Made by a program: the position numbers and the translations under genes. This document shows positions 21 to 32,485 of a DNA stretch of 34,045 nt, in pieces (the stretch's first letter is position 1; each line of letters opens with the position of its first letter). The notes beneath the pieces are model-generated. The model searched no databases, was not told the DNA's origin, and saw only the letters and a program-made list of their open reading frames with translations. This DNA is from Octopus sinensis (Eukaryota): contig NW_021831907.1 in assembly GCF_006345805.1 (NCBI RefSeq), positions 1 through 34,045 on the forward strand, written 5' to 3'.

Positions 21-51
<31 letters not shown>

Positions 52-57
52 GTATAT

Positions 58-89
<32 letters not shown>

Positions 90-228
90 ATATATATATA
101 TGTATGTGTGTGTGTGTATTATATATATGTATGTGGTGTGTGGTAATATATATATATATTATGTTGTGTGTGGTGTGGTTATATATATATAATATATATA
201 TATATATTATATATATATATATATATAA
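1..228. repeat. Mixed (TG)n/(TA)n microsatellite
   Basis: Alternating GT and AT dinucleotide runs; accounts for ORF 5..265. Confidence 0.95.
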
Positions 229-7905: not shown

Positions 7906-8035
7906 AAGAATGCATATATGTGCATAAGTTTGTATATATTTACATACATATGTCTTTATATACAAATCAATTCACATATATTTATATATATATATTATAT
8001 ATATATATACACACACACACACACATGTATATATA
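7515..8035. repeat. Compound (TG)n/(TA)n microsatellite
   Basis: Low-complexity tract; explains the overlapping Y/I/C/V-rich ORFs. Confidence 0.95.
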
Positions 8036-8040
8036 AAAAA

Positions 8041-8856
8041 CAGCCTCAGTACGCTGGAAATAGTACCCTTTTTCCAAAAGTATGGCTCCCTCACAGATAG
8101 TCCAACCAGGATCAGTGAGGTACTGAATGACCGGTTCAAAAGTGTCTTTACCACCCCGTTGGAACACAGACAAGTGAACGAACCAGTGGACAGCTTTGCC
8201 GCCTCACCTATACCCAGCCAAGCATTTACGATGGAATACATCGACATAAGCGAAGAAGATTTACTACTAGCCTTAGATGAGGTGGACGCAAGCTCAACTG
8301 CTGGTTCTGATAGTTTTTCAGCAATCCTCCTCAAATCATGTAAGCAAGCCCTGGCAAAACCCCTCCAGATTCTCTTTCAGAGTTTTCTTGCAAATGGCAG
8401 ACTGCCCAGCAAGCTGAAGGAGGGCATGATATGCCCAATCCATAAAGGAGGGAGCAGAGCAGATGCCAAAAACTATAGACCTATCTCTCTGACTTCACAC
8501 ATCAGCAAAGTCATCGAACAGATCCTTGAAGAAAATAATTTGCTGAGTGATACCCAGTATGGCTTTCGACCAGATAGGAGCTGCCTGACCCAGCTCTTAC
8601 AACATTATGACTGGGTGTTGAGGCAGTTACTCAACAACTCAAATGTAGACGTAGTATACCTTGATTTTGCAAAAGCTTTTGACAAAGTGGATCATGGCAT
8701 GATATGCCAAAAACTGCGTGATCTCGGCATAGCTGGAAAACATGGAGAGTAGTTACATGGCTTTCTGAAAGATAGAAGCCAGACACCTCAATGAAAACAA
8801 AAGTAGCGAGCGGTGTTCCGTAGGTCACTGTCTTGGGACCATTGCTTTTCATATAC
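8041..8856 (+). pseudogene. Non-LTR retrotransposon (CR1/L2-group) reverse transcriptase fragment, inactivated
   Basis: ORF 8159..8752 has PIHKGG, NYRPISLTSHISKV, QYGFRPDRSCLTQLL and [17 protein letters not shown]. In-frame TAG at 8750-8752 (expected W), then [10 protein letters not shown], a deletion, and [15 protein letters not shown] at 8809-8856. Truncated before the YADD motif. Confidence 0.93.
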
Positions 8857-29087: not shown

Positions 29088-29422
29088 TACGGTAGTGTTA
29101 GCTTCTGTTGATGTAAAAAAACATGAGAGCAATGTGAAAATGCACCTTAAGATTTAGTCACACAATAAATATAAGGTGCACTGGGAAGGAACCGACGAAT
29201 TCTATTCGATTAGATCACAAGCTGTGACAAAAGAACTTTGTCAAACCAATATAACTAATTAGTAATCAAATTGATTAATTTTATAAAACTGAAGCGAAAT
29301 ACTAAAAGGCTTTTTCAAGTGAATGTATGGTCTTTCCAGAATCCCTTAAAATTCATAACAAACTTCTGTTTTAGAAAATTACTATTTTTAAATCTCACAA
29401 CAAGAGATATTCAACAACAGTG

Positions 29423-29659
29423 CTTTGGAGTAAAGATTGTTTGCCAACATAACATGGCAGTCCTGGTTTAGGACGAATGTTGCTGTAATTTAGCCACAGG
29501 AGTCTAGGGTTGCTAGATTCCCTTATTCGAAAATGTAAGGACACAGATCGTGTCATATAGCCAGCTGGAGACGATGTCTCCTGGGGCTAAATTACAGCAA
29601 CGTTCATCCTAAACCAGGACTGCCATGTTACGTGTTGGCAAACAATCTTTACTCCAAAG
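29423..29659. repeat. Long inverted repeat (about 80-bp arms, 75-bp spacer)
   Basis: 29423-29502 pairs with 29578-29659 with 3 mismatches and one 2-nt indel. Confidence 0.93.
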
Positions 29660-29807
29660 TTCTGTTTGTTGGGAGTTTACTGACAAAACACTGTTCTTGC
29701 TTCTCTTTCTTTAATTACTATACTTGGAAAACATTGAGCAGCATTAACATAAAGTTTGAAAACTAATATATCATTTAAATAATAATGCCTAATTTCACTA
29801 AATTTTA

Positions 29808-29885
29808 TTTTAACTATTTTTTTCTTCTTTTTTTTACAGGTAAGTGATACGAATTATTTCCGAAATTGTCTATTGGAAGGTAAGT
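29808..29885 (+). other. Candidate recursive splice site / 40-nt RS-exon (or microexon)
   Basis: Branch-like ttttaac (A29813), 19-nt pure pyrimidine run, CAG ending 29839, immediately GTAAGT (29840-29845); second AAG|GTAAGT donor at 29880-29885. Confidence 0.7.
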
Positions 29886-30922
29886 GTTTGTGTTTTATTT
29901 AAATATAATATTGTTCCGTTGAAGTCGGACATATAAGGTTGTCTCCATTATCGTTATTATATTTGGAGTTGTTTACTGTAAGATTAAGATAATTCTATGT
30001 CTGCCATCTTATCAATAGAGCGACACTTAATACGCTTGTTGTGCTTGGCTCTTGCTAATGAACAACTCATCCAGCTTCGTTTTGTCGTAAATAAATAAAA
30101 TCCGAGACTATAACAACATTTATGTTTCCATTTCGTTATTTTACGAAAACAGAATAAATAAAATAAAGTAAAAAATTAAAAAAGACACAAACTAAAGGAA
30201 AATTCTTGGCATTTATCCACTAAATCGTTTCTTTTTCTCTTATTCTTTATTCGTGAAATGATTTTAAAAATAAGTAATTCATTACTTTTTCAGCTATGCT
30301 GTATTTAAATTTTAACATACAATTTTCCTTCATTTTGCCATGATTCCACTTTATCGCTGTTTGCATTTCGGTTCCGTTTCCTTCTCTCTTTCTTTTTTCT
30401 TTTCTTTTTTTTCTTGCTTTTCTTTTGTGTGTGTGTGTGTGTGTTTAGAAAATCGGTTTCTGTTTCACGTTTCCTTTTTCTTTCAGTATCTTTTTTCATT
30501 TTCACTTCTTCAATAATAACGAGATTGGCCACACTCAAACACCAATGTCTTGTGTTAAAAATATTTTAAAAAATATTTTCTGAAATATTTTCGAAATTGT
30601 AAAGATCGATAAAGGCGATTTCTCTAGAAATAATAATTAAAGGAAAATTAAATCAACTCCCAAATAAAAGTGTGATACAGAAATTAGGAAAAGGGTTTAT
30701 CATAAACGAAACAATTTGATTAGATAATGCTTTTGTTTTTTTTAATGAAGGAAAAGATTGGATCTAAAATAATGGCGGGATCCTCGGTAACTTTAAAAGA
30801 TGCAACATACATAAGTACACACATTCATTAGGGAAGCAATGGGGAAAAGATGTATTACTTTCACCAGAAGGCAAAGCACAAACTATGTGTTTACATAAAC
30901 GGGCGCATAATAATGGTGTTCA

Positions 30923-31290: not shown

Positions 31291-31543
31291 TCATATCTAT
31301 TTCAATAAGTAATTGCTTAGATTTCATTTGTATTTTTGGTTATTAATATCGTAAGAATCTCCCTCGTTTTATACGATTTCAATTTACATGGCAACTACTA
31401 ACATCATCTGCTGTGGAAACCGAGGGTTAATTGAATTTCTCATTTTTGAATCATTTTTTTTTTTCTTTTACAGCAGCTTATTGAACATTAATATGTCTTG
31501 AATGAATAAATAAAATATTTTCAGACCTTGTTTATTTTCATAC

Positions 31544-32095: not shown

Positions 32096-32485
32096 TTAGT
32101 TATGATTTTTACGTAATCCTTGCTCTTGGTACAATCTCATGATGTTCCCATGTAGTGCTTGATTTTCATACAACCCCATGATGTTCCCACGTGGCCCTTG
32201 GTCTTCGTACAACCGCATGAATTTTCCACATGATCCTTGATCTTCAAACAACCCGAAGATGTCCCCATATGGTCTTTGGTTTTCGTTCAACCCCATTGCT
32301 GTATTCGCGAAAGAGCTTCTTGGACTATCCTGCCAGCCTATCGCATGGTTCATAAATTCCAGGTGATTAATCTGGAGTTCCTTCTTCGGGTCAAACATCG
32401 CTTTGGTTCTTTCCTGAGAACGGCTTTGACCAGTGACTAACGTATACGTCTCGCTTTCTATTCTTGTTTCTTTAGCAAGAAAGGT
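32096..32485 (-). CDS. Possible coding segment with five 13-aa tandem repeats, unknown product
   Basis: Frame open for 29 codons upstream of the annotated ATG (32398); repeats MGLNENQRPYGDI / FGLFEDQGSCGKF / MRLYEDQGPRGNI / MGLYENQALHGNI / MRLYQEQGLRKNH. Confidence 0.4.
   Translation of the reverse strand, partial: TFLAKETRIESETYTLVTGQSRSQERTKAMFDPKKELQINHLEFMNHAIGWQDSPRSSFANTAMGLNENQRPYGDIFGLFEDQGSCGKFMRLYEDQGPRGNIMGLYENQALHGNIMRLYQEQGLRKNHN
32102..32296. repeat. Diverged 39-bp tandem repeat x5
   Basis: Constant 39-nt period without indels. Confidence 0.9.

What the first reader, a model, noticed from the sequence alone, without database searches (positions are those of the whole stretch)
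29808..29885. Recursive splice site (ratchet point) signature with a 40-nt RS-exon
Seen: branch-like ttttaac, a pure poly-pyrimidine run, CAG directly followed by a perfect GTAAGT donor, and a second perfect AAG|GTAAGT donor 40 nt downstream. Established: fused 3'ss/5'ss sites followed by a short cryptic exon define recursive splicing in long Drosophila and vertebrate introns. Inference: the window lies inside a very long + strand intron that is removed stepwise; I am not aware of this being characterised in cephalopods. The 40-nt exon is not a multiple of 3 and has stops in two frames (TAA, TGA), as a poison RS-exon would; the third frame reads VSDTNYFRNCLLE.
Basis: partly seen in the sequence, partly recalled or inferred. 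Interest (0 to 1): 0.78.

Follow-up and report, generated by a model that had tools for sequence, protein, structure and literature searches.

The report
Recursive splice sites in octopus introns
This spot in octopus DNA has a splice acceptor fused to a splice donor with a second donor 40 bases on, and about a hundred similar sites occur across the genome, so octopuses likely remove their giant introns in steps as fruit flies do, a process that our literature searches did not find reported for any mollusc.

Summary
The motif is real and is not chance. It is one of a genome-wide class in Octopus sinensis. The strict motif occurs 28 times against about 4 per control hexamer, and a relaxed form 104 times against about 22. 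A second donor lies 30-80 nt downstream in 51 of 107 other sites (shuffles 12±3; median 54 nt, no frame bias). Neighbouring sites within 1 Mb are co-oriented in 13 of 13 pairs. Three sites lie sense-strand inside one 355-kb coding intron and their small exons are absent from the annotated protein; two lie 5' of CAST/ELKS-type exons. At this site, one probable-RNA contig from a 5%-diverged octopus aligns from 29836 through the second donor and has 23 unaligned 5' letters, as an exon-to-ratchet-point intermediate would. It is a single low-depth contig and its loose letters were not displayed. The host gene is unknown, and lariats and the saw-tooth were not testable. Verdict: very likely a fly-type ratchet point with a cryptic RS-exon; known mechanism, new lineage. 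The scan noted such sites earlier in other genomes, none in this genome.

The parts
29754..29837 (+). AT-rich zone free of AG upstream of the acceptor
   Evidence: nearest upstream AG 86 nt away; sequence
29808..29814 (+). branch-point-like TTTTAAC (A at -27); its use is inferred; other candidates lie near 29787-29802
   Evidence: a TRAY element lies at -45..-16 in 59 of 107 class members against 3 of 12 and 5 of 28 controls
29817..29835 (+). 19-nt T-rich polypyrimidine tract
29836..29845 (+). ratchet point: acceptor CAG (29837-29839) fused to donor GTAAGT (29840-29845)
   Evidence: contig of run X7 begins to align at 29836 after 23 unaligned letters
29840..29879 (+). 40-nt cryptic RS-exon (not a multiple of 3; one open frame)
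   Evidence: class median 54 nt, lengths mod 3 = 18/20/19
29877..29885 (+). second donor AAG|GTAAGT, 9 of 9 consensus matches
   Evidence: only 3 of 107 other sites have one this strong; no difference listed at 29867-29890 in organism B
29861..30175 (+). sequence just 3' of the site, held unspliced in low-depth contigs of five probable-RNA runs (three studies)
   Evidence: runs were found with this stretch; contigs give no strand
30090..30200 (+). AATAAA hexamers (30090, 30153, 30162) and an A-rich tract where the contigs end; possible poly(A) site, priming site or assembly break

Best explanation
This is a splice acceptor fused to a splice donor with a second donor 40 nt downstream, and it likely works as a fly-type ratchet point that lets a very long + strand intron be removed in steps. 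Inferred steps: (1) the strong acceptor and the donor at 29880 define a 40-nt cryptic exon; (2) a distant upstream exon is joined to 29840; (3) the join rebuilds a full donor (exon end, probably ...ACAG, plus GTAAGT); (4) that donor is used for the next step, so the 40 nt leave with the next intron piece and nothing of the site remains in the mRNA. Shown: the anatomy, the genome-wide excess and organisation of such sites, and one contig that fits step 2. Steps 1, 3 and 4 rest on the Drosophila mechanism.
For: Motif excess: Y18-N-CAG+GTAAGT 28 against 12 over three control hexamers; relaxed 104 against 67 over three. Second donor at +30..80 in 51 of 107 other sites against 7-17 of 107 in six other 50-nt bins, 11 on the opposite strand, 12.1±3.3 in dinucleotide shuffles, and 2 of 12 and 2 of 28 in control sets. 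In the 80 sites fetched after the donor rule was fixed: 36 of 80 against 11 of 80, P 2e-5. No frame preference (18/20/19). Neighbours within 1 Mb: 13 same strand, 0 opposite, among 102 sites (null 2.1 and 2.7). C13: exon 1 of P0001 ends at 4,080,922 and exon 2 starts near 4,435,690; three strict sites and one weak one lie between, all sense; their 46, 50 and 55 nt exons are not in the protein and would shift its frame. C24: two sites 43 kb and 5 kb 5' of a CAST/ELKS-type exon on the same strand. Site level: run X7 record 25 aligns 29836-30175 from its letter 24, unspliced through the second donor; in simulation an orthologous pyrimidine tract would fail to extend in at most 1% of trials, exon-like sequence in 59-70%.
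Against: The junction evidence is one contig of depth 4 from a run only guessed to be RNA; its 23 letters were not displayed, so they were not mapped to an exon, and a chimera or adapter is not excluded. It shows at most use of the acceptor, not of the rebuilt donor. No host exon was found in the window (0 of 40 candidates apart from a reverse-transcriptase fragment). In flies the ratchet donor is usually the stronger one (PMC8605326); here the second donor is perfect, which favours some inclusion. About half of the class (50 of 107) has no second donor at +25..89 by my rule. Conservation of the second donor is not significant (P 0.23). A genome-wide test against 102 homeobox, Ig and nuclear-receptor loci was inconclusive (6 same-strand 5' cases for 102 sites, 2 for 62 controls), and the C21 cluster gave no host gene (0 of 140 candidates).
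Confidence: 0.82

Rival explanations
1. An expressed RS-exon: the 40 nt are often kept by use of donor 29880, as a 5'-UTR exon or as a regulated frame-shifting (poison) exon.
For: The second donor is 9 of 9, matched by only 3 of 107 other sites; no difference is listed across it in organism B; flies have a minority of expressed RS-exons (PMC8605326, passages).
Against: No joint or 40-nt piece was seen in the six probable-RNA runs laid (tables were cut, so absence is weak). The one contig that reaches the site runs unspliced through 29880. In the C13 example the small exons are absent from the annotated protein.
Confidence: 0.08
2. The acceptor starts a short last exon (about 250-340 nt) that ends at a poly(A) site near 30110-30190, in a long non-coding RNA or a truncated isoform; the donors are then bypassed.
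For: All five RNA-type contigs stop at 30103-30175, near AATAAA at 30090, 30153 and 30162; the X7 contig has 5 loose letters at its 3' end.
Against: It does not explain two perfect donors or the class statistics. The A-rich tract attracts many unrelated contigs, so assembly breaks or internal priming are expected there. Run X6 holds patches of similar depth further on, to 33450.
Confidence: 0.06
3. A chance juxtaposition in AT-rich non-coding DNA with no use by the spliceosome; the contigs come from DNA or unspliced RNA.
For: Controls show that about 4 of 28 strict matches, and about 22 of 104 relaxed ones, can be background; two relaxed sites (L078, L115) look like copies of one repeat; run type is a guess.
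Against: This site has all extra features (long AG-free zone, T-rich tract, perfect second donor at +40) and a loose contig end within 4 nt of the predicted junction.
Confidence: 0.04

Closest known systems
Drosophila intronic ratchet points with cryptic RS-exons (Ubx, kuz, Bx, luna; PMC8605326, preprint 10.1101/006163, PMC6110457)
   Same: Fused (Y)n-N-CAG|GTAAGT, strong T-rich tract, second donor about 50 nt downstream (octopus median 54 nt), exon lengths with no frame bias, several co-oriented sites in one long intron, small exon absent from the protein.
   Different: Mollusc, not insect. Pieces between strict sites in the one intron mapped are 54-130 kb, against about 9-16 kb in flies (weaker sites may be missed). 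At this site the second donor equals the best ratchet donor. No saw-tooth, lariat or mutation data.
Vertebrate RS-exons in long neuronal genes (Sibley 2015, as described in PMC8605326; primary paper not read)
   Same: Exon definition by a downstream donor followed by competition between two donors.
   Different: Vertebrates have few fully skipped sites (nine, per PMC8605326) and little sense-strand excess of the motif (ratio 0.9-1.5, PMC2773006); the octopus shows an excess of some 80 sites at my stringency, as invertebrates do.
Computational RP-site enrichment in mosquito, bee, beetle and sea urchin long introns (PMC2773006)
   Same: Motif excess over a control in an invertebrate with long introns.
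   Different: That survey held no mollusc or other lophotrochozoan among its 13 species, and the passages I saw did not examine second donors.

Membership tests
Fly-type ratchet point with cryptic RS-exon | Fused strong 3' and 5' splice sites, AG|GTRAGT after a pyrimidine tract | tested here: met
Fly-type ratchet point with cryptic RS-exon | Second donor a few tens of nt downstream, no frame constraint | tested here: met
   +40 at this site; 51 of 107 in the class
Fly-type ratchet point with cryptic RS-exon | Lies on the sense strand inside a very long intron | tested here: inconclusive
   Met for three class members in a 355-kb intron and consistent for two more; for this site the contig is unplaced and no host exon was found
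Fly-type ratchet point with cryptic RS-exon | Junction from an upstream exon into the AG|GT with downstream intron retained | tested here: inconclusive
   One contig of run X7 fits; its 23 letters were not displayed or mapped
Fly-type ratchet point with cryptic RS-exon | Saw-tooth coverage in total or nascent RNA | not testable with these tools
   Only assembled contigs with one depth each were offered
Fly-type ratchet point with cryptic RS-exon | Lariat from the rebuilt donor; RS-exon absent from mature mRNA | not testable with these tools
   No raw reads; no host transcript. Absence from the annotated protein shown only for the C13 sites
Fly-type ratchet point with cryptic RS-exon | Core motif more conserved than flanks across species | tested here: inconclusive
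   Organism B: 15 listed differences over 29867-30145, none over 29867-29890, P 0.23; 4 unlisted differences near the contig ends could not be placed; no second genome available
Ordinary coding cassette exon or microexon | Length a multiple of 3, open frame, recognisable peptide | tested here: not met
   40 nt; class lengths 18/20/19 over the three phases

The most novel reading that the evidence does not exclude
Octopus runs a genome-wide, fly-type recursive-splicing programme (a hundred to several hundred sites, cutting 100-400 kb introns of genes such as the active-zone scaffold CAST/ELKS into pieces several times longer than a fly's). With insects, sea urchin and vertebrates this would make cryptic-exon-guided recursive splicing a bilaterian ancestral trait. 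This site, with two perfect donors and poly(A) signals close by, could also be a regulated switch between skipping, inclusion and early termination.
Probability: 0.55. Interest if true: 0.65.

Novelty: new member of a known kind. Interest (0 to 1): 0.52.

Why it matters
Octopus genes have very long introns and a large nervous system, and how those introns are spliced has not been addressed in the papers I could search. A ready list of about 100 sites with coordinates makes the question testable at once on existing octopus total-RNA or single-nucleus data. It would add the third bilaterian branch (Lophotrochozoa) to flies and vertebrates, and so bear on whether fully skipped RS-exons are ancestral and were largely lost in vertebrates. 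The mechanism itself is known, so the surprise is moderate.

Tried and rejected
No RNA holder is on record as RNA; run types are guesses. No contig covered the unique stretch just 5' of the site (29700-29791). That would fit a saw-tooth, but the DNA run X10 showed no long contig there either, so it is not counted as evidence. X10 (0.84 of the words) gave no usable alignment for conservation, and X11 held nothing specific. The loose-end tables were cut (140 and 22 rows hidden), so the 23 letters of the X7 contig could not be read. Host-gene search in the window: 40 of 40 candidate frames scanned, only a reverse-transcriptase fragment; the ORF at 32099-32485 (-) has no paralogue or homologue; no Rfam match. 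Cluster C21: 0 of 140 candidates matched Pfam. C13: 150 of 368 candidates scanned, one over cut-off. C24: 90 of 255 scanned, chosen mostly from the + strand, so an antisense gene there is not excluded. The control Y18-N-CAH+GTAAGT (35 matches) is inflated by one repeat family and was used only for the second-donor test. PF23070 did not hit C13. Proximity to homeobox, Ig and nuclear-receptor loci was inconclusive. Spliced-leader trans-splicing was considered for the 23 letters and set aside: it does not explain the donors or the location of class members inside a coding intron, but the letters were not seen. Joseph et al. 2018 was not held.

Full report
1. Observation. The sequence at 29808-29885 is as described: TTTTAAC, a 19-nt pyrimidine run, ACAG, GTAAGT at 29840, and AAG|GTAAGT 40 nt later. 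No other AG lies within 86 nt upstream. It is the only fused site in the window on either strand, and the region is single-copy. The window is a whole unplaced 34-kb contig of a 2.72-Gb genome. An exon elsewhere in this genome is identical to a protein labelled Octopus sinensis. The window holds simple repeats, a reverse-transcriptase fragment and no recognisable host exon.

2. Is the motif more than chance? Y18-N-CAG followed by GTAAGT occurs 28 times in the genome. With the first G replaced by A, C or T it occurs 12 times in all, about 4 each (Poisson P 5e-15). A relaxed pattern gives 104 against 67 over three controls, an excess of about 80 sites. The third control (donor without AG, 35 matches) is inflated by one repeat family.

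3. Do these sites carry RS-exons? I examined 107 other sites: 27 of the 28 strict ones (this site left out) and 80 of the 84 listed relaxed sites not already held (four not fetched; four further matches were not listed by the tool). A donor (AGGTR or GGTRA) lies at +30..80 in 51 of 107, against 7-17 in six other 50-nt bins, 11 on the opposite strand and 12.1±3.3 (maximum 21) in 300 dinucleotide shuffles. Control sets gave 2 of 12 and 2 of 28. The rule was set after seeing the strict sites; the 80 later sites alone give 36 against 11 at +130..180 (P 2e-5). The median implied exon is 54 nt with no frame bias (18/20/19 of 57). Fifty of 107 have no such donor at +25..89, in line with some background and with weak donors that my rule misses.

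4. Are they organised like ratchet points? Among 102 sites on chromosome-scale contigs, neighbours within 1 Mb are on the same strand in 13 of 13 pairs (random placement 2.1 same, 2.7 opposite); the 62 control sites give 2 same and 1 opposite. In 800 kb fetched around three clusters, relaxed matches were 10 on the sense strand (7 seeds, 3 new) and 0 on the other. On C13 the first coding exon of P0001 ends at 4,080,922 and the second begins near 4,435,690. This 355-kb intron, which includes short assembly gaps, holds three strict sites that divide it into 130, 73, 97 and 54 kb. Their 46, 50 and 55 nt exons are not in the protein and would shift its frame. On C24 two sites lie 43 and 5 kb 5' of a CAST/ELKS-type exon on the same strand (90 of 255 candidates scanned, mostly + strand). 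The C21 cluster gave no gene (0 of 140). A wider test against 102 homeobox, Ig and nuclear-receptor loci was inconclusive.

5. RNA at this site. No run is on record as RNA, and only contigs were available. Four probable-RNA runs of organism A hold contigs of depth 3-4 over 29861-30129; they were found with this stretch, and contigs give no strand. In run X7 (organism B, 15 listed differences over 279 nt) a 368-nt contig of depth 4 aligns without gaps from 29836 to 30175, starting at its letter 24. The break is 4 nt before the predicted junction, where an exon ending in ACAG would begin to match, and the contig runs unspliced through the second donor. In simulation an orthologous tract would fail to extend leftward in at most 1% of trials, unrelated tracts of the class in 1-10 of 107, and exon-like sequence in 59-70% (the aligner's scoring is unknown, five settings tried). 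This is what the first intermediate of recursive splicing should look like. It is one contig, its letters were not displayed, and it cannot show the second step. All contigs end at an A-rich tract with AATAAA hexamers, which keeps a last-exon reading alive. No sign of inclusion of the 40 nt was seen in six probable-RNA runs, but the tables were cut.

6. Mechanism. [quoted passage not shown] The anatomy and class statistics are shown; the join is suggested by one contig; the rest is inferred from Drosophila. Rivals are frequent inclusion of the exon (0.08; its donor is 9 of 9, like only 3 of 107 others), a short last exon (0.06) and chance (0.04).

7. Comparison with what is known. PMC8605326 (first of six parts and passages read) describes more than 500 fly ratchet points with cryptic exons of about 50 nt, generally out of frame, and donor competition. 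The Duff preprint 10.1101/006163 (passages) defines sites by junction reads, saw-tooth and lariats, with a median piece of 16 kb. PMC6110457 (passages) gives pieces of about 9-15 kb and enrichment in first introns; the C13 example is a first coding intron. PMC2773006 (passages) found motif excess in four insects and sea urchin but not in vertebrates, and held no mollusc. A 2026 review, PMC13149111 (passages), names flies, mice and humans. Joseph 2018 and Sibley 2015 were not read. No supplements were opened. Searches for recursive splicing with octopus (0 papers), with mollus- (2, unrelated by title and abstract), octopus with ratchet and long introns (0) and with bilateria (3, listing only) found no report for molluscs; one search was too loose to inform. 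Most subscription journals are not in the library. The scan's own notes hold 68 similar findings in other genomes and none for this genome, for octopus or for this sequence; they are unchecked and were not used as support.

8. Verdict. Observation confirmed, interpretation supported. It works like a Drosophila ratchet point, and no defining feature tested was failed, though three were inconclusive and two untestable. New member of a known kind, in a lineage where I found no report. Interest 0.52.

Noticed in passing
window 32099-32485 (-): 129-codon open frame ending in a degenerate 13-residue repeat (39-nt period, 4.7 copies); single-copy in the genome, no homologue among proteins of 70-226 aa, no convincing Pfam match.
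   Followed up: partly
window 7928-8752 (+): Fragment of a LINE-type reverse transcriptase, Pfam RVT_1 E 5e-13.
   Followed up: partly
window 29416-29666: MITE-like inverted repeat (arms 93-94% complementary) about 170 nt upstream of the site; multi-copy by contig depth.
   Followed up: no
window 31454-31473 (+): A second very strong acceptor-like tract (T11-C-TTTT-ACAG) without a fused donor; one X6 contig crosses it unspliced.
   Followed up: no
G000:C24:3,230,127 and 3,267,819 (L199, L202): Two ratchet-like sites 5' of exons of a CAST/ELKS-type active-zone gene (Pfam Cast and RBD-FIP exons at 3.27-3.35 Mb, + strand).
   Followed up: partly
G000:C13:4,080,868-4,677,475: A gene of about 600 kb for a 580-aa protein with DUF7042/7043/7044 domains; its 355-kb first coding intron holds three strict ratchet-like sites.
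   Followed up: yes
G000:C6:84,165,278-84,181,557 (-): An open frame of 2989 codons with eight nuclear-receptor-type C4 zinc-finger matches in tandem, and four more matches beside it.
   Followed up: no
unplaced contigs such as C8699, C12463, C12460, C9497, C12597: Many small contigs carry tandem nuclear-receptor and homeobox matches, several interrupted by a single stop; a non-octopus passenger in the assembly or very short introns might explain this.
   Followed up: no
L046/L047, L059/L060 and other matches: A repeat family whose ends read like a pyrimidine tract plus CAA-GTAAGT, in inverted pairs about 350 nt or 1 kb apart; probably terminal inverted repeats.
   Followed up: no
L078 and L115: Two relaxed ratchet-like matches on different chromosomes share flanking sequence, so a repeat can carry the motif; both were kept in the counts.
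   Followed up: no
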